Part shown: piece after piece, positions 2,000 through 47,974 of the stretch
Layout: each line of letters opens with the position of its first letter
Position numbering within the stretch: the stretch's first letter is position 1
From: Motiliproteus sp.
Lineage (GTDB): Bacteria > Pseudomonadota > Gammaproteobacteria > Pseudomonadales > Balneatricaceae
Assembly (NCBI GenBank): GCA_965230185.1
Contig: OZ245995.1
Location: 1,849,583-1,913,582, forward strand
Direction: 5' to 3'
DNA: 64,000 nt
Notes under the pieces: generated by a model
The model's input: the letters and a program-made list of their open reading frames with translations, nothing else
What the model was told of the DNA's origin: nothing
The model's database searches: none
Made by a program: the position numbers and the translations under genes

Positions 2000-3192
2000 G
2001 ACTCTTTTCCTTTCGCGCCAAGCGTCCAGATATCGTAGTTAGTATCCAGAACAACTACAGGCTTGTGATCTGAGGTAAGAATTTTCTTATAGAAGAATGA
2101 CACGATATCTTCTATCTCTTCAGTGGTTAATACCTTGGTAATACCGCCGGTCAGCACCAGCGAATTTATCGCCAGCAACTTCAGGTTGACGTAGGCCTTG
2201 CGGTAATGGGAAATCTTACACAACACCAGAAAAACGGCGAGTTGCATCAATATCTTAGTTGCTTTTGCACTCTGCTCTTCAAAGATGTTCTCTGTTACTT
2301 TCAGATGCATCAGCAACTCATAGACAAACTCGTTATTCTTTGCTGCAAAAATCAATGACTGCTTTGATTTGTACACGCCCAGTTTTTTGAAAACGAGTCG
2401 GTCATATTCGTTTCTGGTCACGATATTATCGGCAACCAGGTCTTTTGAATAATGGACGTCTGTGGTAGCACCGCCAATATCAAGAAGTACGAAAGGATTC
2501 ACGACAGAATACCGTGCATCAATTAGTGGCAGCGCTTTATTTACAATGTATGGCGTTGAATAGATCTGATTGTCGGTAATATCATACAGATGCTTGATAT
2601 CTTCTTTACCTTCAATATCCTGCTGGTAAAGGTTAGTGAGATACTCTTTCAGTGCGTCTTCGACGATATGCAGTTTGTTGTCGATGATGTTTGGCAGAAT
2701 CACGACATCTTCAATATTCTCTTTTACTGCCGGAGCATCCTGCTCGCTGCCCACAAACACAATGTTGGAGTACTTCAGCTGATCAAGGTATCGATACAAG
2801 CTATCAGAAAACATACCGGCACATGAATCGATACCGCCCACCACAATAACGACATCGATAAGATCACTCGGCAGCGAGTACTCCTCTATATTCTGATAGA
2901 GGACCGTATCAATGATGTTGATGCCGGAATTGAAGGCGATATTAGTCGCATACTTCAGCGAATAGGAGTTTGTGATACCGATAATCAGCGTGCTTAAACC
3001 ACCGTTTGCAGACGAGCAGATATGCACATCATTTTTATCAAAGCGATCGATCGTATCGCCGCATTTATTGACCAGATCATCCAGAATATCCTTATTGAAA
3101 TCTCTGAAGTGCTGCTCAATACTGTTGGATGTGCTGACCTTGAAATAGGTACTGCCAACGTCAATAAGCAACTTGTCGTTATCCTGGCTCAT
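1990..3192 (-). CDS. glmL: GlmL/MutL-like glutamate mutase accessory protein (actin-fold ATPase)
   Basis: This 400-aa ORF has an N-terminal LLIDVGSTYFKV motif and an LLDIGGATTDVHY motif, both typical of GlmL/MutL-type ATPases. It shares an ATGA overlap with the upstream GlmE-like gene. Confidence 0.7.
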   Translation of the reverse strand: MSQDNDKLLIDVGSTYFKVSTSNSIEQHFRDFNKDILDDLVNKCGDTIDRFDKNDVHICSSANGGLSTLIIGITNSYSLKYATNIAFNSGINIIDTVLYQNIEEYSLPSDLIDVVIVVGGIDSCAGMFSDSLYRYLDQLKYSNIVFVGSEQDAPAVKENIEDVVILPNIIDNKLHIVEDALKEYLTNLYQQDIEGKEDIKHLYDITDNQIYSTPYIVNKALPLIDARYSVVNPFVLLDIGGATTDVHYSKDLVADNIVTRNEYDRLVFKKLGVYKSKQSLIFAAKNNEFVYELLMHLKVTENIFEEQSAKATKILMQLAVFLVLCKISHYRKAYVNLKLLAINSLVLTGGITKVLTTEEIEDIVSFFYKKILTSDHKPVVVLDTNYDIWTLGAKGKESCQ

Positions 3193-4553
3193 TGCATAAT
3201 TCCTATATCGTGAACAATATCATTGACGATACTGGTGGTATCTTTGGTCAAATCACACTGTGCTTTCTCATACTCGTAACAGCGGTCCGGAATAGGAACA
3301 TTTGCTCGCTTGATAATTCTGATGTTTTTATTGGCATCCCTGATAGTAATCATCTCGTTATGATTGATGATATGCGGTGAAAAAGGCACATCGATAATGC
3401 CGCTTTTTATCGAGTTGAAGACTTTCCGCCATAGCGTATCCGCCGGATCATTCAATACCGCCTCCATAATGGCTTTGACTTCCAGCGTCAGAATCTCTTC
3501 TTCCTCTTCGTCAACAACCTTCGGCAGTCCATTCAGTATGCCCAGAGTGTACTGAGTGTTGGCCACGGTCTTGGCATTGGCTTCTTTAGTCGGAATGCCC
3601 GCCGCCTCTTCCCGGGTTTTGGTGATGATCTTGTCGGCCCCCACCATGGCCGCAATCACCGTGGACATATTGATCAGCTGTTCGGCGTAGTCTTTATTGG
3701 TTGGGAAGGCGCCCATCCACTGGTGATATACCAGATGGATTGCCGCATCGGAGCAGTTGATCTGCTCGGCGTAGTAGCTGGCCAATTTCTTGATGACGGC
3801 CCCGGTGACGATATCCTGGTTCATGGAACCGGTCTGGGAAAATGAAACCGAGAAGGACTTAACACCCTCTTCCAGTGACAGCAACATCTCCAGCAGCTGA
3901 ATCACGATCGTGATGGCGGGTGGCACCAGGGTTGCGGTAAGCGGGCCAAACGATTCCCGATTGATCGGCAGATTCAGCTCCGAATAGTTGGCACAGACCC
4001 GTTCCACATACTTCCAGTACAGGAAGGCTTTATCCAGAGGAAAGTTCTTGGAATAGGGCAGGAGATAGGTAATCGGCCCGCCTTCTATCTCGAAGATACC
4101 GGATGCAATCGCTGTCTCGATCAGCAATCGGGCATCGGGAGTACCGTGTCTTAAACTCACCGGTTTATTGAAGTGAGTGATCATCTTGCGTGTCGTTCGA
4201 TAGCCATGATTAACCAGGGGATAACCATTGAGCATATCGATATCGTTTTCTTCGCTCAGCCGCAGCATTTTGCTTGCCGTAGCGTAGTCATTCAGGCGTG
4301 TATTGGAATCAATGGTCAACGGCAGAACGTCGACGTTAGCCTCGACAAAAAACTCATTCAGGGCAAACTGCTTTTTATAAGTGGGAAACCCACCCCTTGG
4401 CTGAACAAGCATCTTATTTCTGTTTTTGAAATGATGCGATATAAAGAGTTCTTTGTTGGCGTTTTTTACAAATTCTGTTACTTCGGCAAAGTCGAAAGTA
4501 TCAACATATTCATTGCTAAGAATTATTTCTCTTTCTTCTTGAAGCAAACTCAT
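3189..4553 (-). CDS. glmE: Glutamate mutase epsilon (large, catalytic) subunit-like protein
   Basis: This 454-aa ORF resembles the methylaspartate mutase E chain along its length (for example VQPRGGFPT, LPLTIDSNTRLN, SLRHGTPDARLL, EGGPITYLLPYSK). It shares ATGA overlaps with the genes on both sides. Confidence 0.75.
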   Translation of the reverse strand: MSLLQEEREIILSNEYVDTFDFAEVTEFVKNANKELFISHHFKNRNKMLVQPRGGFPTYKKQFALNEFFVEANVDVLPLTIDSNTRLNDYATASKMLRLSEENDIDMLNGYPLVNHGYRTTRKMITHFNKPVSLRHGTPDARLLIETAIASGIFEIEGGPITYLLPYSKNFPLDKAFLYWKYVERVCANYSELNLPINRESFGPLTATLVPPAITIVIQLLEMLLSLEEGVKSFSVSFSQTGSMNQDIVTGAVIKKLASYYAEQINCSDAAIHLVYHQWMGAFPTNKDYAEQLINMSTVIAAMVGADKIITKTREEAAGIPTKEANAKTVANTQYTLGILNGLPKVVDEEEEEILTLEVKAIMEAVLNDPADTLWRKVFNSIKSGIIDVPFSPHIINHNEMITIRDANKNIRIIKRANVPIPDRCYEYEKAQCDLTKDTTSIVNDIVHDIGIMQ

Positions 4554-4963
4554 TCTTTATTTCTCTTTTCTATAAATGCTTCCAGAGCGTCCAGGCCGGT
4601 ATTGAGGTCAACCTGGTGGCAAACCAGATCAAAACCGTAGTTTTTGTACCTGGGCACAATCTCTTCCGCATTTCCACTACCAACAACCAGATTGCCACCA
4701 ATCATCATAATCAGGTTGTCTAAATTCTTATATTTTGCCTTGAGAGGCTTAACCTCGCGGCTCCACCCCTCCGCTTCCCCGTTCAGGGAGGAGATCAGCA
4801 GGACATCCGCGCCCGTCTCAACCGCCGCATCAAAGAACTCTTCCAGGTAGGTGTTGACACCCAGATTAAACACTTCGAAGCCTCTGGCTCGCAGCGATAG
4901 GTCAATGAGTCGATTAGCGACGACATGGATGTCGTTACCAACTACGCCTGTAACTACCTTCAT
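4550..4963 (-). CDS. glmS: Glutamate mutase sigma (small, B12-binding) subunit-like protein
   Basis: This 137-aa ORF has the same length and layout as GlmS/MutS. It carries the B12-binding-domain motifs GNDIHVVAN (DxHxxG-like, but ending in Ala), ISSL (SxL) and IGGN (GG). Confidence 0.75.
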   Translation of the reverse strand: MKVVTGVVGNDIHVVANRLIDLSLRARGFEVFNLGVNTYLEEFFDAAVETGADVLLISSLNGEAEGWSREVKPLKAKYKNLDNLIMMIGGNLVVGSGNAEEIVPRYKNYGFDLVCHQVDLNTGLDALEAFIEKRNKE

Positions 4964-16095: not shown

Positions 16096-18387
16096 GTGGT
16101 CGTTTTTAAGATCCTTAACAAGGTTACTGGTCAGAACTATGTGGGTTCCTGCCGGGGTGATATTTATGAGCGCTGGGAGCTCTATGCCCGGGCTGCTGAA
16201 GCCGGACTGGATTTTCCCATGTATCGGGAAATCCGTGAGCTGGGCGAAGAGCAGTTCTCCATCGTCGAGCTGGATTTCACGGAAGATCGGGAAGAGCTGA
16301 AGGAGATAGAGCTGCTCCATACCATCGAACTGAAGGCGCGTTCGCTGCGGGCGTATAAATTCGGAGTCAAGGATACGGTGGTCAAGCGTTGTACCAAGAC
16401 CGAACTGGACCAGGCCTGGATGAAGGAACTGTCCCAGCAGGTGCTTGAGGAACGTAATACCGAACTCGGCGTGAAGACACGCCTGCCGGCATCCGCAGAG
16501 GAAACATCGGAAGAGATCGCAGACAACAGTGGCAGGGTGAAAAGCGAAACGACCAGAGCAGACCAGAAATCCGCTGCCGCTGCGATTTCCCGGCTCAGGG
16601 CTATGTCGAAATCGACGACCGGCCGCAGTCCGGCCAGCCCGGATACCGCAGGGGAGGCCGGGCAGTCACCGGCTGCATTGTCCGCTGCCGCGACAGCACT
16701 ACTGAAGAAATCGCTGGGTGGTTCCGAATCTGTGAATTCGGCCGGAATTGGCAAGCAGGCACGGCAGGGGGAGTCGAAACCGGAGGATACACCGCTACGG
16801 ACTCCGGCTTCGGCCGACACGCTGTCGAAGCTGGCTGCACTGAAAGCGAAAGCCCAGGCGGAAAAAGCGAAGGCTGCGAAAGCCCAGAGAGTCGCGGAAG
16901 CACAGAAGGCCGCAGAAGCCCAGGAGGCAGCGGAAGCCCAGAGAGTCGCGGAAGTACAGAAGGCCGCAGAAGCCCTGGAGGCAGCGGAAGCCCAGAGAGT
17001 CGCAGAAGCGCAGCGGGCTGCGGAAGCACGTCGGGCCGCGGAAGAAACTGAGAACAGAAAAGCAGTCGGGAACAATGCAATGTCGGCCTCCCGTTCACCG
17101 GCGACTCCCGCATCCGTCGTCAGAGCCCCGTCTGCAGTGATCAGCCAGGTCAGCCCCGCTACTCAGGTTGCAGATGCCGAAACCGAACAGGAGCTGGAGA
17201 AAGCGATACTGGCAGAAGGCATCGGTTTGCTGGTGAAGACCCTGGGCAGTGCCGACAGGCTGACCCGCTTTCGCCGGCAGATCAGCGACCAGAGTCAGGC
17301 GGTAGCCCGGGCGCTGACCGAATCGGAGCAGGCGATCAGTCAGTTACAGAAACAACAGCAGCTGGCTGCCGAGCGGGCTCGTCAGGCGGTGGCTGCAGCA
17401 GAGGCGGCAGAGGCCGCTAACAGTGCTCTCAGTGAGGCTCACCAGCGCGCCCGTCGCTGTTCGGAAACGGTGCTTGAAGCGTTGCAGGAGAGCGCCGGAA
17501 CAGCAACTGAAGTCGAACAGCTGCAGGATGATCTTGTCTCGCTTCTCGACCGCCTGCGCGGCAGCACCGGCGGTACCGGTGACAAGCGGGCTGCAACGTC
17601 CGTGGCGGCCCACAGTCCGGGCTCAGATACGCAGCCGGAGGTTATCCCCTCTGCCAGTCGTTCTGTCAGCACGGCGACCGGGACTGTCGCCGAAGCGGAG
17701 TGCCAGACGCTGACAGAGACCACGGATAGCGTTGCTGTCGATACTTCCATCAGCCATCCTGAAATTAAAGAGGCAACAGCAGAGCCTGTTGAATCGGTTC
17801 CGGTTACTGAAAAACCGGAAGCGGATCTCATTACAGAGGCTGATAGCAACTCCGGAAACTCTCAGCCATCGTCTGGGGTTGTTATCGACCCTGTGGCAGA
17901 GGCTTCACCTGTTCAGTCATCGGTGGTTGAAACGTCTGCCGACGTGCCCGAGGGTATCGAGATGGTAAACCGGCTGAAGCAGCTGGGACAACTCTTGCAG
18001 CAGGAGTCCACACAGGTGCCGGAATCGGACCGGGCTGAATTGACAGCGCAGCCCGGCGCCGCCTCTGAGAGTGTTGTTGTGGTAAGCGAAGATTCTGACG
18101 AAGGCTCGGACCAGAATTCCGGGGAGCCGGAAAGTACGGTGTCAGCCGGCGCCCGTGCCTGGGTGGCACCGCTGGAGGAAGGACAGAACAGCGCTCGGGT
18201 CGTCGCCAGTGCCGCAGCGGCTAAGGTGGTGCGCCGTCGCTCCAGACAGGTTTCACTGAACGACAGCGGCGGTCGCCAGGTTCTCAATCCTCAGAATACT
18301 GTGGATGGTGGTTCTGTTTCGGCTGCGTTGTCCGTTACCGGGCGCCCGGTGCTGAGCCGGAAAAAACTGAGCATTCGAAGCCGCTGA
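16096..18387 (+). CDS. Protein with a GIY-YIG-like N-terminal domain and a ~650-aa low-complexity Ala/Glu/Gln/Ser-rich tail
   Basis: This 763-aa ORF starts at GTG. Its N-terminus, VFKILNKVTGQNYVGS...YERW...MYREIRELGEEQFSIVELDF...EIELLH, matches GIY-YIG spacing (about 10 aa between the GIY-like and YIG elements). Residues ~250-320 are imperfect AEAQ(K/R)(A/V)AEAQ repeats, seen as roughly 60-bp DNA repeats at 16860-17040. Confidence 0.65.
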   Translation: MVVFKILNKVTGQNYVGSCRGDIYERWELYARAAEAGLDFPMYREIRELGEEQFSIVELDFTEDREELKEIELLHTIELKARSLRAYKFGVKDTVVKRCTKTELDQAWMKELSQQVLEERNTELGVKTRLPASAEETSEEIADNSGRVKSETTRADQKSAAAAISRLRAMSKSTTGRSPASPDTAGEAGQSPAALSAAATALLKKSLGGSESVNSAGIGKQARQGESKPEDTPLRTPASADTLSKLAALKAKAQAEKAKAAKAQRVAEAQKAAEAQEAAEAQRVAEVQKAAEALEAAEAQRVAEAQRAAEARRAAEETENRKAVGNNAMSASRSPATPASVVRAPSAVISQVSPATQVADAETEQELEKAILAEGIGLLVKTLGSADRLTRFRRQISDQSQAVARALTESEQAISQLQKQQQLAAERARQAVAAAEAAEAANSALSEAHQRARRCSETVLEALQESAGTATEVEQLQDDLVSLLDRLRGSTGGTGDKRAATSVAAHSPGSDTQPEVIPSASRSVSTATGTVAEAECQTLTETTDSVAVDTSISHPEIKEATAEPVESVPVTEKPEADLITEADSNSGNSQPSSGVVIDPVAEASPVQSSVVETSADVPEGIEMVNRLKQLGQLLQQESTQVPESDRAELTAQPGAASESVVVVSEDSDEGSDQNSGEPESTVSAGARAWVAPLEEGQNSARVVASAAAAKVVRRRSRQVSLNDSGGRQVLNPQNTVDGGSVSAALSVTGRPVLSRKKLSIRSR

Positions 18388-18457
18388 GGGGCGGCTTTCC
18401 CCTGGCCCGCCACTTCAGATCCTGATCGGCCAGAGGCAATCGGGCCGGGATGAGCCG

Positions 18458-18500
18458 GGCAGACCACCAGGTTGTCAGAATCTGATGGCCTGCCTTTTTT
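18458..18500 (+). terminator. Putative rho-independent terminator after the GIY-YIG-like gene
   Basis: The imperfect stem GGCAGACCA ... TGGCCTGCC is followed by TTTTTT. Confidence 0.5.
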
Positions 18501-18666
18501 GCTTGTGTCTTATTTATGCAAACACAATCAGACTTGTTGTTTGCTTTGTGGCAACAAAGAGTTTTCAAAAAAATCAGATAGGAATCATGCCTGGTTCGCT
18601 GTGATTCAATTTAATGGCTTTACTTAACAAGTAGTTAGGTTTTATTTCCAGCTTCTGAAAATAAGC

Positions 18667-18682
18667 TGGCATGGTCGCTGCA
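18667..18682 (+). promoter_or_regulatory. Sigma-54 (-24/-12) promoter, peptide gene copy A
   Basis: TGGCATGGTCGCTGCA compares with the consensus TGGCAC-N5-TTGCW. The GG and GC elements are spaced correctly, and the element lies 54 nt upstream of the ATG. Confidence 0.65.
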
Positions 18683-18735
18683 ATATCCTGAGTGTCTTCA
18701 ACAGACTGCCTTCACAAAGAACCAGGAGTAAGATT

Positions 18736-18996
18736 ATGACCGCAGCCGTCCCCATGAAACAGCCGATGACCCTGATCGATCTGCCGATCAATAAGGAACT
18801 GGACCAGAGTGCCATGAAGCAGCTGGCCGGTGGTCACACCGCCGGAACCACGGTGAGTTATTCCTACTACACCACCATCCAGACCCAGTCGATCGGTTTC
18901 CTTAAGCGTCACCGTCGTAAGTACCACCACACTCGCAGAACCGTTCAGCGCTGGCACACTTACGGTCGTTGGGGCCGCTGGCACTTCCACCTGTAA
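18736..18996 (+). CDS. 86-aa double-glycine-leader cationic peptide precursor, copy A
   Basis: An AGGAG Shine-Dalgarno site lies 7 nt upstream and a terminator lies downstream. The protein is identical in all 4 copies, and every inter-copy nucleotide difference is synonymous. The leader is ...INKELDQSAMKQLAGG and the 53-aa core has no Asp, Glu or Cys. Confidence 0.85.
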   Translation: MTAAVPMKQPMTLIDLPINKELDQSAMKQLAGGHTAGTTVSYSYYTTIQTQSIGFLKRHRRKYHHTRRTVQRWHTYGRWGRWHFHL

Positions 18997-19045
18997 CTGA
19001 CAGGTAGCGCAGGCAGTAAGCTCTGAGAGCGATCTGCACTGACAG

Positions 19046-19069
19046 AAAAGGGGCTTCGGCCCCTTTTTT
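19046..19069 (+). terminator. Intrinsic terminator of copy A
   Basis: GGGGC-TTCG-GCCCC followed by TTTTTT. Confidence 0.85.
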
Positions 19070-19572
19070 GATATCCCCACCGCTGATCCGATCTCCTCCT
19101 GTCGATTATTATCCCTACCCATAATCCGATAACCTGCAGTCGGTTGCTATTCCTGTCGATGTCCCGCTCTGTCAATTCTGAGACAGATCCTCGCCAGTCC
19201 GTCACGATCCTTTTCTTCGAAGCCCGTCAGCGCCTGTTTCGGTATCAGCCGCAAGCTGTGATCCGGGTTGCCGGGACTGTCGCCGTGCGCCGCGCCTGTG
19301 GTGTTTCAGAGTACTTCCTGTCGATCCCTGAAAAAACCGGCTCCGATTCGGCCGTTGTCCGTGGGATCGGAAGTCCAGCGCCTTCTCCGGTGCCGAATGG
19401 CGATATTTTCTGCTGTCTGGTTTTCAGCAACAGTGTCAGAGAAATCGTTGGACGTTTCAGAACATAGCAGTCCGGGTGGTTGTCAGGGGATATCATCAAT
19501 TCGCGGTGGGAGTGATTTTTTTGTCCTACAGAACAACGCTTTATGTGCTTTTTGCTGGTGTCGATAAAAAGC

Positions 19573-19588
19573 TGGCACGGCGGCTGCA
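19573..19588 (+). promoter_or_regulatory. Sigma-54 (-24/-12) promoter, copy B
   Basis: TGGCACGGCGGCTGCA matches 15 of the 16 positions of TGGCACG-N4-TTGCW, counting the four N positions. Confidence 0.7.
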
Positions 19589-19641
19589 GTACCTTAAGTG
19601 TCTTCAACAGACTGCCTTCACAAAGAACCAGGAGCAGGATT

Positions 19642-19902
19642 ATGACCGCAGCCGTCCCCATGAAACAGCCGATGACCCTGATCGATCTGCCGATCAATAA
19701 GGAACTGGACCAGAGTGCCATGAAGCAGCTGGCCGGTGGTCACACCGCCGGAACCACAGTGAGTTATTCTTACTACACCACCATTCAGACCCAGTCGATC
19801 GGTTTCCTTAAGCGTCACCGTCGTAAGTACCACCACACTCGCAGAACCGTTCAGCGCTGGCACACTTACGGTCGTTGGGGCCGCTGGCACTTCCACCTGT
19901 AA
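19642..19902 (+). CDS. 86-aa double-glycine-leader cationic peptide precursor, copy B
   Basis: This copy has the same protein as copy A, with three synonymous differences (ACG>ACA, TCC>TCT, ATC>ATT). The ORF-track entry 19543..19902 includes a spurious 5' extension. Confidence 0.85.
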   Translation: MTAAVPMKQPMTLIDLPINKELDQSAMKQLAGGHTAGTTVSYSYYTTIQTQSIGFLKRHRRKYHHTRRTVQRWHTYGRWGRWHFHL

Positions 19903-19951
19903 TTGACAGGTACCGCAGGCAGTAAGCTCTGAGAGCAATCTGCACTGACAG

Positions 19952-19976
19952 AAAAGGGGCTTCGGCCCCTTTTTTT
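19952..19976 (+). terminator. Intrinsic terminator of copy B
   Basis: GGGGC-TTCG-GCCCC followed by TTTTTTT. Confidence 0.85.
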
Positions 19977-20469
19977 GGTTCTTCGCGCATAATAGTGAAA
20001 GTTCCGTAGCCTGCGCTGAGCGGACGTTTGCTTTAGTGATGCTTTGGGAGTTTAAAGCTCGTTTGCAGAGTCAGCTGATGTTTTTTGTTGCGCCCCGCGG
20101 CATTCGAACGTCCTTATTCATCAAAAGTGCACCCCACTTTGCCGCCCTGCGCGGTCCACTGCGTGCGATAGCGAAGCTGGGGGCGTCTGGACAGCGCTTC
20201 CCTACACTGACCATCTGGATCAGCTTACTTGCCTCGCCCCATTCCGGGCCTGATTCCATCCTCGTCACCGTGCTCGCCGGCTACGAGGGGAGAGGTGCCA
20301 AATTCGAACTACGGGAGTTAGTAGGCCCATTTTGTCGGCCTGAAGGCCGACCCACATGTAGCACGATCGTAGGTCGGGCTTCAGCCCGACAAATGGATTC
20401 CAGCTTGTGCCAATCCCGACGTCGGCTTTGCAGCCCAAAGCCGCCAATCCCCTTAAAGCGCGAAGAACC
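19977..20469. mobile_element. 493-bp MITE-like non-autonomous element (copy 1) inserted in the terminator T-tract
   Basis: It has perfect 12-bp terminal inverted repeats, GGTTCTTCGCGC ... GCGCGAAGAACC, flanked by T7 and T6. The empty sites at copies A and D read GGCCCC-TTTTTT-GATATCCCC, and the occupied site resumes with TTTTTT-GTTATCCCC. There is no credible ORF. It contains an inverted REP-like hairpin pair at 20321-20390. Confidence 0.55.
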
Positions 20470-21028
20470 TTTTTTGTTATCCCCATCTATCTTCCGCCCT
20501 CTGTCTGCTAATCCTGAGGCAGACTTCCAGAAGTCCCCAGGTCTCTTTTCCGCAAGCTGCGGACTTCGACTGCTACCACCAGCTGAGATGCCCACCCGGA
20601 TAATGCCGGTTCCTCCGCCCGTTCCTTGGCCCACCGCGCTTACTGCTGAATATTCTCAGCAGCCCCCCCCCCGAGAACCTGTAAACCGATCTGGCAGTTT
20701 CGCTGTCTCTCTAGGCCTCTCTGGGGCGTGAAAATGGCATCGGAGCCACTGAGAAACGCTCCTGCTCCGTTGTTGAGCGCCAGGTCCGGTCCGATTTTTG
20801 GCATGTTTTCCGGAGGGGGTGGAGGTGACAGCGCTGTCGGTTTTTATTCTTTCTGCCAGGTTTCAGGGGTGTTTTGTTTATAGGAACACTGGCATAAAAA
20901 TAGTTAGCTTACTGGGAACATAATTGCTTCGGTAATTGTTCGCAGATATTAAGCATCAGTGAATAATGAAGATTTTTATTTCAAATAAAACAATCGGTTG
21001 TGGTTTTTTTTGACTGTAAGCAGAAAGC

Positions 21029-21044
21029 TGGCACGGCCGCTGCA
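21029..21044 (+). promoter_or_regulatory. Sigma-54 (-24/-12) promoter, copy C
   Basis: The sequence is TGGCACGGCCGCTGCA. Confidence 0.7.
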
Positions 21045-21097
21045 CTACCTTAAGTGTCTTCAACAGACTGCCTTCACAAAGAACCAGGAGTAAGATT

Positions 21098-21358
21098 ATG
21101 ACCGCAGCCGTCCCCATGAAACAGCCAATGACCCTGATCGATCTGCCGATCAATAAGGAACTGGACCAGAGTGCCATGAAGCAGCTGGCCGGTGGTCACA
21201 CCGCCGGAACCACGGTGAGTTATTCCTATTACACCACCATCCAGACCCAGTCGATCGGTTTCCTTAAGCGTCACCGTCGTAAGTATCACCACACTCGCAG
21301 AACCGTTCAGCGCTGGCACACTTACGGTCGTTGGGGCCGCTGGCACTTCCACCTGTAA
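21098..21358 (+). CDS. 86-aa double-glycine-leader cationic peptide precursor, copy C
   Basis: This copy has the same protein, with three synonymous differences from copy A (CCG>CCA and TAC>TAT twice). Confidence 0.85.
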   Translation: MTAAVPMKQPMTLIDLPINKELDQSAMKQLAGGHTAGTTVSYSYYTTIQTQSIGFLKRHRRKYHHTRRTVQRWHTYGRWGRWHFHL

Positions 21359-21407
21359 TTGACAGGTACCGCAGGCAGTAAGCTCTGAGAGCGATCTGCA
21401 CTGACAG

Positions 21408-21432
21408 AAAAGGGGCTTCGGCCCCTTTTTTT
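21408..21432 (+). terminator. Intrinsic terminator of copy C
   Basis: GGGGC-TTCG-GCCCC followed by TTTTTTT. Confidence 0.85.
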
Positions 21433-21925
21433 GGTTCTTCGCGCATAATAGTGAAAGTTCCGTAGCCTGCGCTGAGCGGACGTTTGCTTTAGTGATGCTT
21501 TGGGAGTTTAAAGCTCGTTTGCAGAGTCAGCTGATGTTTTTTGTTGCGCTCCGCGGCATTCGAACGTCCTTGTTCATCGAAAGTGCACCCCACTTTGCCG
21601 CCCTGCGCGGTCCACTGCGTGCGATAACGAGGCTGGGGGCGTCTGGACAGCGCTTCCCTACACTGACCATCTGGCTCGGCTTGCTTGTCTCGCTCCATTC
21701 CGGGCCTGATTCCATCCTCGTCACCGTGCTCGCCGGCTACGAGGGGAGAGGTGCCAAATTCGAACTACGGGAGTTAGTAGGCCCATTTTGTCGGCCTGAA
21801 GGCCGACCCACATGTAGCACGATCGTAGGTCGGGCTTCAGCCCGACAAATGGATTCCAGCTTGTGCCAATCCCGACGTCGGCTTTGCAGCCCAAAGCCGC
21901 CAATCCCCTTAAAGCGCGAAGAACC
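21433..21925. mobile_element. 493-bp MITE-like element (copy 2), same position relative to peptide copy C
   Basis: It has the same 12-bp terminal inverted repeats (21433-21444 and 21914-21925). It differs from copy 1 mainly in a block that corresponds to 20090-20250. Confidence 0.55.
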
Positions 21926-22356
21926 TTTTTTGTTATCCCCATCTATCTTCCGGCCTCTGTCTGCTAATCCTGAGGCAGACTTCCGGAAGTCCCCAGGTCT
22001 CTTTTCCGCAAGCTGCGGACTTCGACTGCTACCACCAGCTGAGATGCCCACCCGGATAATGCCGGTTCCTCCGCCCGTTCCTTGGCCCACCGCGCTTACT
22101 GCTGAATAATCTCAGCCCCCCCGAGAACCTGTAAACCGATCTGGCAGTTTCGCTGTCTCTCTAGGCGTCTCTGGGGCGTGAAAATGGCATCGGAGCCACT
22201 GAGAAGCGCTCCTGCTCCGTTGTTGAGCGCCAGGTCCGGTCCGATTTTTGGCATGTTTTCCGGAGGGGGTGGAGGTGACAGCGCTGTCGGTTTTTATTCT
22301 TTCTGCCAGGTTTCAGGGGTGTTTTGTTTATAGGAACACTGGCATAAAAATAGTTA

Positions 22357-24051
22357 GTGTCCATCCATAAACGGCATCTTTTACGGATGCCCCTTATGGC
22401 AGAGAGGATCAGCTTGATCCTTCTTTGCCTATTTCGTGTCCCATTCACTCCAATCTGATGTCGAAGACAGATTGTAGGCCCCCCTGTCAGCCATTTTTGG
22501 CCATAGCTATTCATCGGTCAGTCGATGACCGGGGAGCTTGCTGCCGTCTCCTCGCTGGTGGGGCGGCTATGTGGCTGGCTGTCGCGAGAGCACGGCCAAG
22601 TTATGCACTACCACCGCAGACCAGACGTACGCCTTAAAATGCTCCAGTCCCTTCCAAGTGCAACGTGCCAAGCCGTAGGACCGCTTGAGGCAGGAGATGC
22701 CGGCTTCGACCCCTGCCCGGAAGTTGCGCAGTTTGCGATACACCCAATCACTCTTCGTCATCTGTGCAACCTTCAGGCCCTTTTTCTTGCTGAACGCCAC
22801 ATCTTTCACACCTTTTTCTTTGGCCAACTGCACATTGACTTTGCTGGCGTAACCGCCATCGGCTGCCATTTGCCGGGGAGCCCGTCCATAGATCTCTATC
22901 TGCCGCTCCAGCAGCGGAATAAAGCGCTCGCTGTCGGCCGGGTTACCGTCCTCGATTACCGCATCGAGAATCAACCCGCTCCGGCCGGTGGCCAAGTTCA
23001 GCTTGTGCCCATATTGAATATCGCGGCTACCTTTGACGATGATATCGCTGTGCTCCTCAAACAGGCTAAAGACCTTCTCTGCGGCGGGCACCTGTTCGCC
23101 TTTTATCACCCGCCGTTCGGCTTGATCGACCACCCGCTCAATCAGCGCCTGGTAGTGTTTGGCCTGCTCCTGCCAACCGGCGAATGCCGCATCATCCAGT
23201 TTCAGTAGGCTTAGCTGCAACCATGCCTTGGCCAGGTAATCGAGACCCTTGCCGGTTACCTTGATCAGATCCCGATACCATCGAACTTTCTTCTCCTTCC
23301 CTCTCGAATACTGGATCTGGTAGGCGCGCTTCTTGGCTACGCGTCGATGGTCATGCCAATCCAGGCGTGTCTCCCCCGCCAACTCTTGGGCTTGTTGCAA
23401 GAGCCGAACCTGAGTGCGGACGGCATCCCATAGCAGGCTACTATCACTCGGGGCATGGATCGGCGTCTCTGTGACGGTGCTATCGACCCGAACTGTGCGC
23501 CCTCGCTCGATCTTTAGCTCTTTCGCATCCTGCAACATCAATCGGTTGATCTGCTCCCAGACTGCATCGCGAATCGCTCCGATCCCCCCCTGGAGAGCAG
23601 ACTTCTTCGGCCGCCAGGTCTGTGGCAAGCGCGCAAAGGCTTGCAATGAAAGCGAGTCCTCCAAGTAAAAGGCCAACTCCTCATAGCTGAGCTGACGGTA
23701 TTGCTTGAGAATGGCACATCGCAGTATCGACTCCGCGGACAACCCCTCTCGCCCGGTGTTTTGGGCGTCCTGCCGGCACAGATCCTCAGCGACCCATTCC
23801 AGTATCTCGGAATGAGCATCCAGCCAATCGGACATCGTCTTTAATTCACGGCCGATCTCGTGATTGGCATACACATCGAATATACTGCTCTGGACAGTGC
23901 GTTTTTGACGCATTGTGGCCTCCGTGGGTTTTGGCTTTTTCTTTTATTTCAATGGGTTGAAACAAAAGATACCATTATCCACGTGAGGCATCACCGCTTA
24001 TCTCTTCATTTTCTCCAATAATATCAGCATATTACGTTTATGGATGGACAC
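22357..24051 (-). mobile_element. IS element (~1.7 kb, DDE transposase of the IS4/IS5 superfamily)
   Basis: It has 17-bp perfect terminal inverted repeats (GTGTCCATCCATAAACG). A direct duplication TAGTTA(G) is present at 22351-22357 and 24052-24058. The uninterrupted target sequence is visible at 20911-20917 in the neighbouring repeat unit. Confidence 0.9.
22567..23913 (-). CDS. IS transposase (DUF772-type N-terminus + DDE_Tnp_1-type catalytic domain; IS5/ISNCY-like)
   Basis: This 448-aa ORF has the motifs LSYEELAFYLEDSLSLQAFARL, VRVDSTVTETPIHAPSDSSLLWD, ADGGYAS and FRAGVEAGISCLKRSYGLARC. Confidence 0.85.
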   Translation of the reverse strand: MRQKRTVQSSIFDVYANHEIGRELKTMSDWLDAHSEILEWVAEDLCRQDAQNTGREGLSAESILRCAILKQYRQLSYEELAFYLEDSLSLQAFARLPQTWRPKKSALQGGIGAIRDAVWEQINRLMLQDAKELKIERGRTVRVDSTVTETPIHAPSDSSLLWDAVRTQVRLLQQAQELAGETRLDWHDHRRVAKKRAYQIQYSRGKEKKVRWYRDLIKVTGKGLDYLAKAWLQLSLLKLDDAAFAGWQEQAKHYQALIERVVDQAERRVIKGEQVPAAEKVFSLFEEHSDIIVKGSRDIQYGHKLNLATGRSGLILDAVIEDGNPADSERFIPLLERQIEIYGRAPRQMAADGGYASKVNVQLAKEKGVKDVAFSKKKGLKVAQMTKSDWVYRKLRNFRAGVEAGISCLKRSYGLARCTWKGLEHFKAYVWSAVVVHNLAVLSRQPAT

Positions 24052-24179
24052 TAGTTAGCTTACTGGGAACATAATTGCTTCGGTAATTGTTCGCAGATAT
24101 TAAGCATCAGTGAATAATGAAGATTTTTATTTCAAATAAAACAATCTGTTGTAGTTTTTTTTGACTGTAAGCAGAAAGC

Positions 24180-24195
24180 TGGCACGGCGGCTGCA
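24180..24195 (+). promoter_or_regulatory. Sigma-54 (-24/-12) promoter, copy D
   Basis: The sequence is TGGCACGGCGGCTGCA. Confidence 0.7.
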
Positions 24196-24248
24196 ATACC
24201 TTAAGTGTCTTCAACAGACTGCCTTCACAAAGAACCAGGAGCAAGATT

Positions 24249-24509
24249 ATGACCGCAGCCGTCCCCATGAAACAGCCGATGACCCTGATCGATCTGCCGA
24301 TCAATAAGGAACTGGACCAGAGTGCCATGAAGCAGCTGGCCGGTGGTCACACCGCCGGAACCACGGTGAGTTATTCCTATTACACCACCATCCAGACCCA
24401 GTCGATCGGTTTCCTTAAGCGTCACCGTCGTAAGTATCACCACACTCGCAGAACCGTTCAGCGCTGGCACACTTACGGTCGTTGGGGCCGCTGGCACTTC
24501 CACCTGTAA
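24249..24509 (+). CDS. 86-aa double-glycine-leader cationic peptide precursor, copy D
   Basis: This copy has the same protein, with two synonymous differences from copy A that are shared with copy C. Confidence 0.85.
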   Translation: MTAAVPMKQPMTLIDLPINKELDQSAMKQLAGGHTAGTTVSYSYYTTIQTQSIGFLKRHRRKYHHTRRTVQRWHTYGRWGRWHFHL

Positions 24510-24558: not shown

Positions 24559-24582
24559 AAAAGGGGCTTCGGCCCCTTTTTT
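24559..24582 (+). terminator. Intrinsic terminator of copy D
   Basis: GGGGC-TTCG-GCCCC followed by TTTTTT. Confidence 0.85.
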
Positions 24583-46436: not shown

Positions 46437-46512
46437 TGGCTCCCCGAACAGGACTCGAACCTGTGACCAATAGATTAACAGTCTACTGCTCTACCAACTG
46501 AGCTATCGGGGA
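46437..46512 (-). tRNA. tRNA-Asn (GTT)
   Basis: This 76-nt cloverleaf reads TCCCCGATAGCTCAGTTGGTAGAGCAGTAGACTGTTAATCTA...GGTTCGAGTCC...GGGGAGCCA, with the anticodon loop CTGTTAA. Confidence 0.95.
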
Positions 46513-46548
46513 ACTGCCGATCAGCGTACTCAGAGACGCTGTGAAAAA

Positions 46549-46625
46549 TGGTCGGGGTAGAGAGATTCGAACTCCCGACATCCTGCTCCCAAAGCAGGCG
46601 CGCTACCAGACTGCGCTATACCCCG
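46549..46625 (-). tRNA. tRNA-Pro (TGG)
   Basis: This 77-nt sequence reads CGGGGTATAGCGCAGTCTGGTAGCGCGCCTGCTTTGGGAGCAGG...GGGAGTTCGAATCTCTC TACCCCG ACCA. Confidence 0.95.
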
Positions 46626-46645
46626 ACTACAGATGACTTAAGGGA

Positions 46646-46721
46646 TGGCTCCTCGAACAGGACTCGAACCTGTGACCAATAGATTAACAGTCTACTGCTC
46701 TACCAACTGAGCTATCGAGGA
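46646..46721 (-). tRNA. tRNA-Asn (GTT), second copy
   Basis: It matches the first Asn copy except for the acceptor stem (TCCTCGA/TCGAGGA). Confidence 0.95.
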
Positions 46722-47816: not shown

Positions 47817-47974
47817 GTCTTCGGTGACCGGTTTCGGCGCTGTTATTTGAGCCCCCGGTTGGGTTAGAATCTGTTCCTTTACGGACCGGTCCGGCCCCCT
47901 GAAAGGCCCCTGCCTTTTGCCTCCTGATGCTGTGCAGGGCGGACCTCCTTCTGCAACTCTCAATAGGAAAATTC

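What the first reader, a model, noticed from the sequence alone, without database searches (positions are those of the whole stretch)
18667..24195. Near-consensus RpoN (-24/-12) promoter in front of each peptide copy, with unrelated upstream regions and no activator gene in the window
Each ATG has a TGGCA(C/T)G-N4-CTGCA element 54 nt upstream. The elements are TGGCATGGTCGCTGCA at 18667, TGGCACGGCGGCTGCA at 19573, TGGCACGGCCGCTGCA at 21029 and TGGCACGGCGGCTGCA at 24180. The established consensus is TGGCACG-N4-TTGCW. The GG and GC dinucleotides are exactly 10 nt apart, and only the first T of TTGC deviates.

Homology among all four copies begins only a few nucleotides upstream of the -24 element. 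The regions where an enhancer-binding-protein site would normally lie (about -80 to -150) differ between copy A, copy B and copies C/D.
- Copy A has a small palindrome, CTTTGT-GGCA-ACAAAG, at 18544-18559.
- Copies C and D have an imperfect repeat, GAACATAATTG...TAATTGTTC, at about 20925-20950.

Sigma-54 promoters are strictly activator-dependent. Four such promoters on one small gene family therefore imply tight, signal-dependent and potentially massive induction.
Basis: partly seen in the sequence, partly recalled or inferred. Interest (0 to 1): 0.62.

Follow-up and report, generated by a model that had tools for sequence, protein, structure and literature searches.

The report
Sigma-54 promoters driving a multicopy peptide
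Four copies of a small gene for an uncharacterised leader-bearing cationic peptide each carry a complete, evolutionarily conserved sigma-54 promoter (two activator sites, an IHF-like site, the -24/-12 core and a terminator), an ordinary kind of switch on an unstudied peptide family whose activator and function remain unknown.

Summary
TGGCAYG-N4-CTGCA lies at 18667, 19573, 21029 and 24180, 69 nt before four ORFs that encode the identical 86-aa peptide.

Comparison with other loci strongly supports the sigma-54 reading. Every homologous gene elsewhere with enough 5' sequence has TGGCA-N6-CTGCA at the same place (8 independent loci, down to 34-41% peptide identity). T-26GGCA-22 and C-15TGCA-11 are invariant, the spacer varies, and the 5'UTR length ranges from 39 to 63 nt. 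One further locus has a GC-to-GA variant at -12.

They share a gapped dyad, GTY-N11-RAC (often TGTY-N11-RACA), at two fixed positions, starting at -184 and -152 and 32 bp apart. They also share an IHF-like WATCAR-N4-TTR at -68. This is the textbook layout: enhancer, bend, then -24/-12.

The tandem dyad occurs nowhere else in the window or in 1.5 Mb of comparison DNA. An IS element has split the enhancer of copy D.

No activator gene and no peptidase-domain (C39) exporter gene is in the window. The peptide has a double-glycine-type leader and a cationic core predicted to form beta strands, and it belongs to no named family. Read depth suggests roughly 10-15 copies per genome.

No transcript data exist. 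Sigma-54 dependence, the activator and the peptide's function are all inferred.

The parts
18507..18523 (+). Copy A distal activator-site candidate (GTCTTATTTATGCAAAC; GTY-N11-RAC, start -186)
18539..18555 (+). Copy A proximal activator-site candidate (GTTTGCTTTGTGGCAAC, start -154).
18625..18637 (+). Copy A IHF-like site TAACAAGTAGTTA (1 mismatch to WATCARNNNNTTR, start -68)
18667..18682 (+). Copy A -24/-12 element TGGCATGGTCGCTGCA
18692..18698 (+). Copy A conserved GTGTCTT at the predicted transcription start (-1..+6). The same motif lies at 19598-19604, 21054-21060 and 24205-24211.
18736..18996 (+). Copy A ORF, 86-aa peptide (leader ending ...MKQLAGG, then a 53-aa cationic core)
19050..19069 (+). 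Copy A intrinsic terminator GGGGCTTCGGCCCC-T6
19415..19431 (+). Copy B distal activator-site candidate GTCTGGTTTTCAGCAAC (start -184)
19447..19463 (+). Copy B proximal activator-site candidate GTTGGACGTTTCAGAAC (start -152)
19531..19543 (+). Copy B weak IHF-like site GAACAACGCTTTA (2 mismatches, same position)
19573..19588 (+). Copy B -24/-12 element TGGCACGGCGGCTGCA
19642..19902 (+). Copy B ORF, identical 86-aa peptide
19956..19976 (+). Copy B intrinsic terminator
20871..20887 (+). Copy C distal activator-site candidate GTTTTGTTTATAGGAAC (start -184)
20903..20919 (+). Copy C proximal activator-site candidate GTTAGCTTACTGGGAAC (start -152)
20988..21000 (+). Copy C IHF-like site AAACAATCGGTTG (1 mismatch, start -67)
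21029..21044 (+). Copy C -24/-12 element TGGCACGGCCGCTGCA
21098..21358 (+). Copy C ORF, identical 86-aa peptide
21412..21432 (+). Copy C intrinsic terminator
22321..22337 (+). Distal activator-site candidate that belonged to copy D. The IS insertion now separates it from D's promoter by an extra 1.7 kb.
22357..24051 (-). IS element, 1695 bp. Its DDE_Tnp_1/DUF772 transposase ORF is at 22567-23913 (-). It has terminal inverted repeats GTGTCCATCCATAAACG and a 6-bp target duplication TAGTTA at 22351-22356 and 24052-24057. It inserted at the 5' edge of copy D's proximal dyad.
24054..24070 (+). Copy D proximal activator-site candidate GTTAGCTTACTGGGAAC (start -152), kept intact by the target duplication
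24139..24151 (+). Copy D IHF-like site AAACAATCTGTTG (1 mismatch)
24180..24195 (+). Copy D -24/-12 element TGGCACGGCGGCTGCA
24249..24509 (+). Copy D ORF, identical 86-aa peptide
24563..24582 (+). Copy D intrinsic terminator

Best explanation
**What each unit is.** Each of the four units is a self-contained monocistronic gene transcribed by RNA polymerase carrying sigma-54.

**Proposed mechanism (inferred from the anatomy)**
1. An unlinked enhancer-binding protein (a AAA+ activator of the NtrC class) binds two dyad sites, (T)GTY-N11-RAC(A), centred near -176 and -144. The sites are three helical turns apart and so lie on the same face of the DNA.
2. The AT-rich tract between the sites and the promoter, with an IHF-like site centred near -62, bends the DNA.
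3. The activator then contacts the closed complex sitting on TGGCAC-N5-CTGCA (GG at -25/-24, GC at -13/-12).
4. ATP hydrolysis opens the promoter, and transcription starts at or next to the G of the conserved GTGTCTT.
5. The mRNA is about 380 nt. It has a 43-nt leader with an AGGAG ribosome-binding site and the 86-codon ORF, and it ends at the hairpin GGGGCTTCGGCCCC-T6/7.

**Consequence.** The same module sits on all copies (four here, probably 10-15 per genome). One signal acting through one activator should therefore switch the whole family from silent to strongly expressed. Copy D has lost its distal site to an IS insertion and is expected to respond more weakly.

**The product.** It is most likely a precursor with a double-glycine-type leader (...ELDQSAMKQLAGG / HTAG...). 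An exporter with a peptidase domain, encoded elsewhere, would cut it to release a 53-residue peptide. That peptide carries about +10 charge, is rich in His, Arg, Trp and Tyr, and is predicted to form beta strands. A bacteriocin-like or signalling role is plausible.

**Shown versus inferred**
- Shown: the sequence elements, their conservation and their fixed positions; purifying selection on the ORF; the absence of a linked activator or exporter gene.
- Inferred: sigma-54 dependence, the transcription start, the identity and signal of the activator, IHF binding, and cleavage, export and activity of the peptide.
For: **1. The -24/-12 core is conserved across the family.**
- TGGCA-N6-CTGCA with exact spacing lies upstream of the four window copies and of the homologues in L001, L002, L003, L004, L086, L092, L093 and L094.
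- T-26 to A-22 and C-15 to A-11 are invariant, positions -20 to -16 vary freely, and 5'UTR length ranges from 39 to 63 nt.
- L092 and L094 encode peptides only 34-41% identical to the window peptide.

**2. The extended consensus fits.**
- A is found at -29/-30, C at -27 in most, and AATA follows CTGC.
- CTGCAAT is found in ChIP-supported Salmonella promoters (astC, STM2840), and CTGCA in glmY and argT (PMC3844500 Table 3).
- Weight-matrix scores of 15.5-17.7 for copies A, C and D, and 17-19 for most homologues, compare with a training range of 16.5-24.5.

**3. A conserved tandem dyad lies upstream.**
- I searched all 3-nt dyad half-sites, spacers of 4-15 and all positions. The best result was GTY-N11-RAC at -185, present in 8 of 9 independent promoters. 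Shuffles reached at most 2-3.
- A second copy of the dyad lies 32 bp downstream.
- The tandem pattern matches only upstream of these peptide genes, both in the 64-kb window and in 1.5 Mb of loci. Each dyad pair is found on both strands.
- This includes the most distant member (P0010, loci L087-L089), where the dyads lie at exactly -184 and -151 from its TGGCAT.

**4. An IHF-like site is positionally conserved.**
- A site with at most 1 mismatch lies at -68/-67 on the + strand in 6 of 10 independent promoters. In shuffles, 4 or more coincided in 1 of 500.
- The remaining promoters have 2-mismatch versions at the same place.
- The 100 nt upstream of the core are 67-72% A+T (55% in copy B) in a genome region of 57% G+C.

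**5. No conserved sigma-70 promoter.** No -35/-10 pair lies inside or just upstream of the unit.

**6. The architecture matches a proven case.** At E. coli glmY, GlrR binds three TGTCN10GACA motifs more than 100 bp upstream, IHF is essential, and the promoter is sigma-54 dependent (PMC3045617).

**7. The ORF is a real gene.**
- All 6 variable CDS sites among the four copies are synonymous.
- Homologues conserve both the leader and the core.
- AlphaFold2 gives pLDDT 74-91 for residues 41-86, as three beta strands.

**8. The leader fits the double-glycine pattern.** Hydrophobic residues occupy -4, -7 and -12 and GG is invariant. There is a weak match to the leader of TIGR04149 (E 0.02-0.03).
Against: - **No transcript evidence.** No RNA-seq run holds this sequence. 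The start site and rpoN dependence are therefore untested.
- **The genome beyond the window was not available.** The presence of rpoN, of a matching activator and of a peptidase-domain exporter is assumed. That assumption rests on the closest relative being Motiliproteus (88% identity of a PotA-like ATPase) and on general knowledge of motile marine Gammaproteobacteria.
- **The core deviates from the ideal.** The -15 position is C rather than the consensus T in all members.
- **Copy B scores low.** Its matrix score is 11.6 because of G at -10.
- **One locus has a variant -12.** The P0010 locus has GA instead of GC at -13/-12, plus a good sigma-70-like TTGACT-17-TAGATT overlapping it. So at least one member may use, or also use, sigma-70.
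- **The matrix score alone is within reach of shuffled sequence**.
- **The dyad matches no known activator consensus.** It is one base pair longer than the GlrR and TyrR boxes and three longer than the NifA box. A T-N11-A core is also what LysR-type regulators recognise.
- **No exporter, immunity or modification gene lies near any family member**.
- **The peptides fall below the threshold of every leader-peptide model**.
Confidence: 0.8

Rival explanations
1. The TGGCA-N6-CTGCA element is not a sigma-54 promoter. It would instead be an operator or another conserved DNA or RNA element, and the genes would be transcribed from a sigma-70 or other sigma-factor promoter in the AT-rich upstream region.
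For: - The weight-matrix score alone is not significant in a 64-kb window.
- The distant P0010 locus has TTGACT-17-TAGATT overlapping a -12 element that reads GA instead of GC.
- Weak sigma-70-like matches lie about 90 nt upstream of copies C and D.
- No transcript data exist.
Against: - No sigma-70-like pair is shared by the four copies or by the homologues.
- The invariant and variable positions fall exactly as sigma-54 contacts predict: GG and GC blocks fixed, the spacer free, and the spacing exact in 12 promoters.
- The two blocks are not a palindrome and cannot pair as RNA.
- The upstream dyads and the IHF-like site keep a fixed distance to this element, not to the ATG. UTR length ranges from 39 to 63 nt.
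Confidence: 0.06
2. The promoter is sigma-54 dependent, but the conserved GTY-N11-RAC dyads are not the enhancer. They would bind another regulator, such as a LysR-type protein (T-N11-A box), a repressor or a nucleoid protein. The activator would then act from solution or from another site, for example the conserved GTGTCTT at +1.
For: - The core of the dyad is T-N11-A, the LysR-type signature (general knowledge).
- The dyad matches no published activator consensus. Scans for the NifA, LuxO and NtrC patterns gave no consistent hits.
- GTGTCTT is conserved at the start site in 10 of 13 promoters, and it resembles the left half of copy A's distal dyad.
Against: - The position (-136 to -186), the tandem arrangement, the 32-bp spacing and the IHF-like site in between are all typical of enhancers. 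NtrC at glnAp2 (general knowledge) and GlrR at glmY are examples.
- LysR-type sites normally lie at about -65 and -35.
- TGT...ACA half-sites are common for the Fis-type helix-turn-helix of these activators (NifA, GlrR, TyrR/PhhR; general knowledge).
Confidence: 0.12
3. The peptide is not an exported double-glycine-leader precursor. It would be an intracellular small basic protein, for example one that binds nucleic acid or metal or acts in a stress response, and it would function uncleaved.
For: - No C39-peptidase ABC transporter, immunity gene or modifying enzyme lies in the window or near homologues.
- The peptides are below threshold for every leader or bacteriocin model.
- The core is very basic and has 7 His, which is compatible with binding nucleic acid or metal (composition).
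- Sigma-54 regulons include many stress genes (PMC3844500).
Against: - The N-terminal 33 residues are conserved as strongly as the core. GG is invariant, and hydrophobic residues occupy -4, -7 and -12, the pattern recognised by peptidase-domain exporters.
- The only sub-threshold model match is to a GG-leader family, and it falls over exactly this stretch.
- Precursors that lie far from their transporter and occur in many copies are known for the prochlorosin/Nif11 type (general knowledge).
Confidence: 0.35

Closest known systems
E. coli / Salmonella glmY and glmZ promoters (GlrR/QseF + IHF + sigma-54)
   Same: - Small genes present in more than one copy, each with its own sigma-54 promoter and terminator.
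- Several dyad activator sites with TGT...ACA half-sites more than 100 bp upstream.
- IHF sites between the enhancer and the promoter.
- The glmY core reads TGGCACAATTACTGCA, which has the same CTGCA (PMC3045617; PMC3844500).
   Different: - The product here is a translated peptide, not an sRNA.
- The dyad is TGTY-N11-RACA (19 bp), whereas GlrR's is TGTC-N10-GACA (18 bp).
- There are two sites here rather than three.
- The activator gene is not adjacent.
Vibrio Qrr1-5 sRNA genes (LuxO + sigma-54)
   Same: Four or five near-identical small genes, each with a private sigma-54 promoter and terminator, are switched together by one unlinked activator. This is gene dosage used as an output amplifier (general knowledge).
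   Different: - The LuxO site is TTGCA-N3-TGCAA, and it was not found here.
- The products there are sRNAs.
- The copies here are partly tandem and probably number 10-15.
NtrC-dependent glnAp2 promoter
   Same: Two strong activator dyads lie 32 bp apart, upstream of a -24/-12 promoter (general knowledge).
   Different: - No NtrC consensus TGCACCA-N3-TGGTGCA is present.
- The sites here lie about 35 bp further upstream.
- An IHF-like site lies in between.
Double-glycine-leader peptides (class II microcins and bacteriocins; multicopy prochlorosin/Nif11-type and TIGR04149-type RiPP precursors)
   Same: - A leader of about 33 residues ends in an invariant GG, with hydrophobic residues at -4, -7 and -12.
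- The precursor is present in many copies and lies far from any transporter.
- The core is cationic.
   Different: - It is below threshold for every model (TIGR04149 scores 14 bits against a cutoff of 25).
- There is no Cys, Ser or Thr pattern typical of lanthipeptides.
- No exporter, immunity or modification gene is nearby.
- I found no report of sigma-54 control of such producer genes in the library searched.

Membership tests
Sigma-54 (-24/-12) promoter | GG at -25/-24 and GC at -13/-12 with exactly 10 nt between the dinucleotides | tested here: met
   All four copies and 8 homologous loci have it. One distant locus has GA at -13/-12.
Sigma-54 (-24/-12) promoter | Match to the extended consensus, scored against experimentally supported sites | tested here: inconclusive
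   A matrix from 29 Salmonella ChIP sites scores A 17.7, D 17.0, C 15.5 and B 11.6. The training range is 16.5-24.5. These are the top hits in the window, but shuffled windows reach 11-18.
Sigma-54 (-24/-12) promoter | Upstream activator sites (an enhancer) at a conserved distance | tested here: met
   A tandem GTY-N11-RAC starts at -184 and -152 in 8 of 9 and 7 of 9 independent promoters. Shuffles reach at most 3, and the pattern is unique to these genes in 1.5 Mb. Binding by an activator was not tested.
Sigma-54 (-24/-12) promoter | DNA bend or IHF site between the enhancer and the promoter | tested here: met
   WATCAR-N4-TTR with at most 1 mismatch lies at -68/-67 in 6 of 10 independent promoters. 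In shuffles, 4 or more coincided in 1 of 500. The tract is AT-rich.
Sigma-54 (-24/-12) promoter | No functional sigma-70 -35/-10 serving the same start site | tested here: met
   No shared sigma-70-like pair was found. The exception is the P0010 locus.
Sigma-54 (-24/-12) promoter | Transcription depends on rpoN and on an ATP-hydrolysing activator, with the 5' end 11-13 nt downstream of the GC | not testable with these tools
   No RNA runs were found. Only the window of this genome is available.
Sigma-54 (-24/-12) promoter | The genome encodes sigma-54 and at least one enhancer-binding protein | not testable with these tools
   Neither is in the window. This is inferred from the closest relative being Motiliproteus, order Oceanospirillales.
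Double-glycine-leader peptide (bacteriocin / RiPP precursor) | N-terminal leader ending in GG, with conserved hydrophobic residues at -4, -7 and -12 | tested here: met
   G32 and G33 are invariant. L/V is at -4, M at -7 and L at -12 in 10 family members.
Double-glycine-leader peptide (bacteriocin / RiPP precursor) | Passes a curated leader or precursor profile | tested here: not met
   TIGR04149 gives 14.2-14.6 bits against a cutoff of 25. There are no Pfam hits of substance.
Double-glycine-leader peptide (bacteriocin / RiPP precursor) | Cognate C39-peptidase ABC exporter (and an immunity or modification gene) in the neighbourhood | tested here: not met
   None was found in the 64-kb window or in the 20-kb and 14-kb contexts of P0007 and P0010. 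The rest of the genome was not available.
GlrR/QseF regulon | Activator sites TGTC-N10-GACA | tested here: not met
   The sites here are TGTY-N11-RACA, one base pair longer.
NifA regulon | Upstream site TGT-N10-ACA | tested here: not met
   Only two scattered matches were found, at non-conserved positions.

The most novel reading that the evidence does not exclude
These genes would define a previously undescribed regulon in marine Oceanospirillales-like bacteria. A single unlinked enhancer-binding protein with a new 19-bp recognition dyad (TGTY-N11-RACA) would switch on, through sigma-54, a family of 10 or more copies of double-glycine-leader peptides. The matured products would be unmodified, cationic, beta-structured 53-mers released in a burst as an antimicrobial or a signal. 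This would be the first case of sigma-54 control of bacteriocin-like producer genes, and of a regulatory module co-inherited with its peptide family across distant taxa.
Probability: 0.4. Interest if true: 0.6.

Novelty: new member of a known kind. Interest (0 to 1): 0.5.

Why it matters
**What makes it useful.** The promoter type is textbook, but the case is unusually clean and easy to test.
- It is a complete module (enhancer, bend, -24/-12 core) that has stayed attached to one small, unannotated peptide family across genomes of very different base composition.
- It supplies a defined 19-bp dyad with which to fish out an unknown activator.
- It offers a multicopy, all-or-none output that should be easy to detect.
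- The family is very rare: 14 proteins among 5.8 billion clusters, and 5 clusters among 1.84 billion representatives.

**If the peptide is exported.** Sigma-54 would then be linked to production of a bacteriocin-like peptide. I found no report of this in the library searched.

**The natural mutant.** The IS insertion that splits the enhancer of copy D allows the two-site requirement to be tested without making a mutant.

Tried and rejected
- **Ungapped k-mer search.** Searching the upstream regions with ungapped 7-10-mers found only A/T tracts, barely above shuffles (timed out, 35). The enhancer appeared only when I searched for gapped dyads.
- **Known activator consensus sequences.** NifA TGT-N10-ACA, LuxO TTGCA-N3-TGCAA and two forms of the NtrC site gave no consistent hits.
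- **Sigma-54 weight matrix as a stand-alone test.** It ranks the sites first but is not significant against shuffles.
- **Public-collection scans with the peptide alignment.** The genome-contig scan returned nothing. The metagenome scan returned only a contig already known.
- **Second genome scan, with the PotA-like ATPase.** It gave the taxon (Motiliproteus, 88%). No peptide gene or promoter was found in any of the 80 loci.
- **RNA evidence.** No RNA run was found. The runs that hold the sequence are DNA.
- **Rfam.** Only three tRNAs were found in the window.
- **Structure and sequence comparison of the peptide with the PDB.** Nothing meaningful (Foldseek E of at least 1, hmmsearch E 0.7).
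- **Pfam and NCBIfam for the peptides.** Nothing above threshold.
- **Search of all held loci for an rpoN box or GAFTGA.** This was meant to give a probe for the read set. It found none usable.
- **Literature searches for sigma-54 control of double-glycine peptides or microcins.** No relevant paper was found.

Full report
**1. The observation**

- The pattern TGGCAYG-N4-CTGCA occurs four times in the window, at 18667, 19573, 21029 and 24180 on the + strand. Shuffles predict 0.05 occurrences.
- Each element lies 69 nt (counted from T of TGGCA to A of ATG) in front of an 86-codon ORF: 18736-18996, 19642-19902, 21098-21358 and 24249-24509.
- The four ORFs encode exactly the same peptide. The six nucleotide positions that vary among them are all synonymous, so the ORF is under purifying selection and is a real gene.
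- An alignment of the four units shows that homology starts at AAGC, 4 nt before TGGCA. It ends just after a canonical intrinsic terminator, GGGGCTTCGGCCCC followed by six or seven T. Each unit is thus promoter, 5'UTR, ORF and terminator.
- Self-comparison of the region gives the duplication history:
  - Unit B plus 930 bp downstream is repeated as unit C plus its downstream segment (97.6%, 1340 bp).
  - Unit C with 128 bp of upstream sequence is repeated as unit D (98.9%).
  - Units A and D share their downstream flank (95%).

**2. Context**

- Pfam scans of about 50 large ORFs in the window found ordinary metabolic, transport and regulatory genes. Among them are a glutamate mutase cluster, GNAT, LysE, redoxin, MocR-type regulators, a Pot-like ABC importer, aldehyde dehydrogenase, GGDEF, Wadjet JetA/JetC and a Cpx-like two-component system.
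- They found no Sigma54_activat domain and no C39-peptidase ABC transporter.
- A six-frame search for GAFTGA, ESELFG and GESGxGK was negative. The statement that no activator gene is in the window holds.
- The closest genome, judged by a PotA-like ATPase, is Motiliproteus sp. MSK22-1 (88%), followed by Neptunomonas, Amphritea and Marinobacterium. The window therefore comes from a marine gammaproteobacterium of the Oceanospirillales group.
- That such organisms carry rpoN is general knowledge. It was not tested here.

**3. The peptide family**

- The peptide has no Pfam or NCBIfam family. Its only near hit is the leader part of TIGR04149, a family of double-glycine-leader RiPPs, at E 0.02-0.03 and 14 bits against a cutoff of 25.
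- The family is very small: 14 proteins in the 5.8-billion-cluster database and 5 clusters among 1.84 billion representatives. All come from marine or sediment samples.
- The alignment shows two conserved parts.
  - The first is an N-terminal stretch: D-L-P/E...L-D-x-x-A-M-x-x-L-x-G-G. GG is invariant, and hydrophobic residues occupy -4, -7 and -12 relative to the presumed cut. This is the pattern of double-glycine leaders.
  - The second is a core: ...Q-T-Q-S-x-G-F-L-K-R-H-R-x-x-Y-H-x-x-R-x-T...H-T-Y-G-x-W.
- In the window peptide the core is 53 residues. It has 8 Arg, 2 Lys, 7 His, 3 Trp, 5 Tyr and no acidic residue.
- AlphaFold2 on the 10-sequence alignment gives pLDDT 74-91 for residues 41-86, as three beta strands. 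Confidence for the leader is low.
- No PDB fold or sequence match is meaningful.
- The longer contexts of P0007 (20 kb) and P0010 (14 kb) contain no exporter, modification enzyme or activator gene, and they share no neighbour with the window.

**4. Is the -24/-12 element conserved? (the main test)**

- I fetched the DNA around every family member that could be looked up.
- All eight loci with enough 5' sequence have TGGCA-N6-CTGCA, 65-89 nt before the ATG: L001, L002, L003, L004, L086, L092, L093 and L094.
- Anchored on TGGCA, the column counts over ten independent promoters are as follows:
  - T-26 G G C A-22 is invariant, and C-21 is found in 9 of 10.
  - Positions -20 to -16 vary freely.
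  - C-15 T G C A-11 is invariant.
  - A-8, C-6 and G-1 are invariant.
- Upstream of -30 and downstream of +7 the sequences are otherwise unalignable between loci.
- The 5'UTR length ranges from 39 to 63 nt. The element is therefore fixed as a unit in itself, not relative to the ATG.
- L092 and L094 encode peptides only 34-41% identical to the window peptide, so the element is as old as the family.
- The one exception is the P0010 locus (L087-L089, a low-G+C genome). It reads TGGCATCAAGTTTGAC, with GA in place of GC, and it overlaps a plausible sigma-70 pair, TTGACT-17-TAGATT.
- Two contigs (L090, L091) break 27-35 nt before the ATG and are uninformative.
- C at -15 is not a problem. CTGCA occurs in ChIP-supported Salmonella promoters (astC, argT, glmY, STM2840), and CTGCAAT exactly in astC and STM2840 (PMC3844500 Table 3).

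**5.

- A matrix built from the 29 intergenic Salmonella sites of that table ranks the four sites first in the window. Scores are A 17.7, D 17.0, C 15.5 and B 11.6, the last tied with two unrelated hits at 11.6.
- Most homologues score 17-19. The training range is 16.5-24.5.
- Mononucleotide-shuffled windows reach 11-18. The score alone proves nothing.
- Similarly, a search with at most 1 mismatch to TGGCACG-N4-TTGCW finds only copies B, C and D. Three or more hits arise in 8 of 100 shuffles.

**6. The upstream regions are not unrelated**

- An ungapped k-mer search found only A/T tracts.
- A search for gapped dyads found (T)GTY-N11-RAC(A) at two fixed places, starting at -184 (+/-2) and -152 (+/-2) relative to the predicted start and 32 bp apart.

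| Site | Promoters that have it |
|---|---|
| Distal, start about -184 | A, B, C, L001, L003, L004, L086, L092 |
| Proximal, start about -152 | A, B, C, D, L001, L002, L003, L086 |

- As a control against having chosen the pattern after seeing it, I searched all 3-nt half-sites (with one R/Y position), all spacers from 4 to 15 and all positions. The best result in the real data is exactly GTY-N11-RAC at -185, in 8 of 9 independent promoters. In 40 shuffles the best was 2 or 3.
- The tandem form (two dyads separated by 13-17 nt) occurs nowhere in the 64-kb window or in 1.5 Mb of fetched loci except upstream of these peptide genes. The sites are A 18507, B 19415, C 20871, and those in L001, L003, L086 and L087-L089.
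- In the distant P0010 locus the two dyads lie at -184 and -151 from its TGGCAT. This shows that its degenerate element is the homologue of the others.
- An a-priori IHF consensus (WATCARNNNNTTR, at most 1 mismatch) is found at -68/-67 on the + strand in A, C, D, L001, L002, L086 and L093. That is 6 of 10 independent promoters at the same position. In shuffles, 4 or more coincided in 1 of 500.
- The remaining promoters have 2-mismatch versions of the same CAR-N3-GTTR core at the same place.
- The 100 nt before the core are 67-72% A+T (55% in B), within a window of 57% G+C.

**7. Interpretation**

- Two dyads on the same helical face more than 100 bp upstream, an IHF-type bend site, a -24/-12 core and no sigma-70 promoter together make the standard architecture of an activator-dependent sigma-54 promoter.
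- The nearest worked example is glmY. There, GlrR binds three TGTCN10GACA motifs more than 100 bp upstream, IHF is essential, and the sigma-54 core reads ...CTGCA (PMC3045617).
- The dyad here is one base pair longer than the GlrR box and the TyrR box, and three longer than the NifA box. It does not match the LuxO or NtrC sites. The activator cannot be named.
- In three long contexts the activator gene is not linked to the peptide genes. This suggests one regulator serving many scattered targets.
- I rate the sigma-54 reading at about 0.8 to 0.85. What is missing is any transcript or genetic evidence.

**8. Copy number and the IS element**

- Contigs of a DNA run from the same organism have word depth of about 17.5 on the flanks and 110-390 over the unit. 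One 85-nt unitig alone has a depth of 126.
- Allowing for double counting where unitigs overlap, this points to roughly 10-15 copies of the unit per genome.
- Supporting details are extra upstream and downstream flanks seen as loose ends, and a variant that matches P0002 (95% identical, same 5.8-Mb contig).
- L001 shows that tandem copies also exist in another genome.
- A 1695-bp IS (22357-24051) carries a DDE_Tnp_1/DUF772 transposase and inverted repeats GTGTCCATCCATAAACG, and has a target duplication TAGTTA. It inserted exactly at the 5' edge of copy D's proximal dyad.
- The duplication keeps that proximal dyad intact. D's distal dyad (22321-22337) is now 1.7 kb further away. D is therefore a natural one-site variant.

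**9. Unexplained**

- GTGTCTT at -1 to +6 is conserved in 10 of 13 promoters: intact in nine, GTGTCTC in L086, and absent from L088, L092 and L094.
- It is neither part of the sigma-54 consensus nor obviously structural. It could be a preferred initiation sequence, a 5'-end stability element or a further protein-binding site.

**10. Novelty and verdict**

- The promoter class and its logic are known. What is new is this instance: a rare, unannotated family of double-glycine-leader-like peptides that carries a complete sigma-54 module everywhere it is found, with an activator-site consensus that matches no described regulator.
- Three literature searches found no report of sigma-54 control of such producer genes. 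The library searched is incomplete.
- I classify the finding as a new member of a known kind, of moderate interest (0.5).

Noticed in passing
window 22357-24051 (target duplication at 22351-22356 and 24052-24057): A 1695-bp IS (DDE_Tnp_1/DUF772 transposase on the - strand, 17-bp terminal inverted repeats, 6-bp target duplication TAGTTA) sits between the distal and proximal dyads of copy D's promoter. This makes D a natural enhancer mutant.
   Followed up: yes
window 18692-18698, 19598-19604, 21054-21060, 24205-24211; also L001, L002, L003, L004, L086, L093: GTGTCTT is conserved exactly at the predicted transcription start (-1..+6) in 10 of 13 promoters. It is not part of the sigma-54 consensus and its role is unknown.
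   Followed up: partly
window 18300-19300 laid on run X1: Word depth is about 17.5 on the flanks and 110-390 over the peptide unit. Extra flanking sequences and a P0002-like variant (changes at 18936-18944) also appear. Together these suggest roughly 10-15 copies of the unit in the genome, not just the four in the window.
   Followed up: partly
window 16096-18387 (+): The ORF just upstream of copy A (763 aa if it starts at the GTG) has a GIY-YIG / group-I-intron-endonuclease-like N-terminus (TIGR01453, E 1e-5, below cutoff). A long low-complexity stretch rich in Ala, Glu and Gln follows, and there is no Pfam family.
   Followed up: partly
window 20320-20400 and 21765-21850: The duplicated spacer between units contains a pair of GC-rich hairpins (GTCGGCCTGAAGGCCGAC ... 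GTCGGGCTTCAGCCCGAC) that look like a REP-type intergenic repeat.
   Followed up: no
window 47927-53658 (and probably to about 55360): A Wadjet-type anti-plasmid defence locus: JetA (47927-49441, PF18982, E 1e-89) and an SMC-like JetC (50173-53658). The small ORF between them and the ORFs after JetC have no Pfam hit and were not examined.
   Followed up: no
window 46440-46721 (-): Three tRNA genes in a row (Rfam RF00005, 68-74 bits).
   Followed up: no
window 1990-4963 (-): A glutamate (methylaspartate) mutase cluster: B12-binding S subunit, E subunit and a MutL-like reactivase. An AMP-binding enzyme and an RraA-like aldolase lie next to it.
   Followed up: no
L088 9913-9960 (P0010 locus): In the most distant family member the -12 element reads TTGAC (GA instead of GC) and overlaps a good sigma-70-like TTGACT-17-TAGATT. 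The two dyads and the IHF-like site are kept at the same distances. This may be a promoter in transition, or a dual sigma-54/sigma-70 promoter like the one at E. coli glmY.
   Followed up: partly
L092 1-35; L001 2-97: In L092 the peptide gene lies about 300 bp downstream of the 3' end of a tRNA gene. In L001 the end of a second peptide copy precedes the complete copy by about 800 bp, so tandem copies also occur in that metagenome-assembled genome.
   Followed up: no
P0011: A 2868-aa protein matches profile positions 21-53 (end of the leader and start of the core) in 19 separate stretches, at E 6e-6. It is probably a repeat protein with a similar short motif. It was not examined.
   Followed up: no
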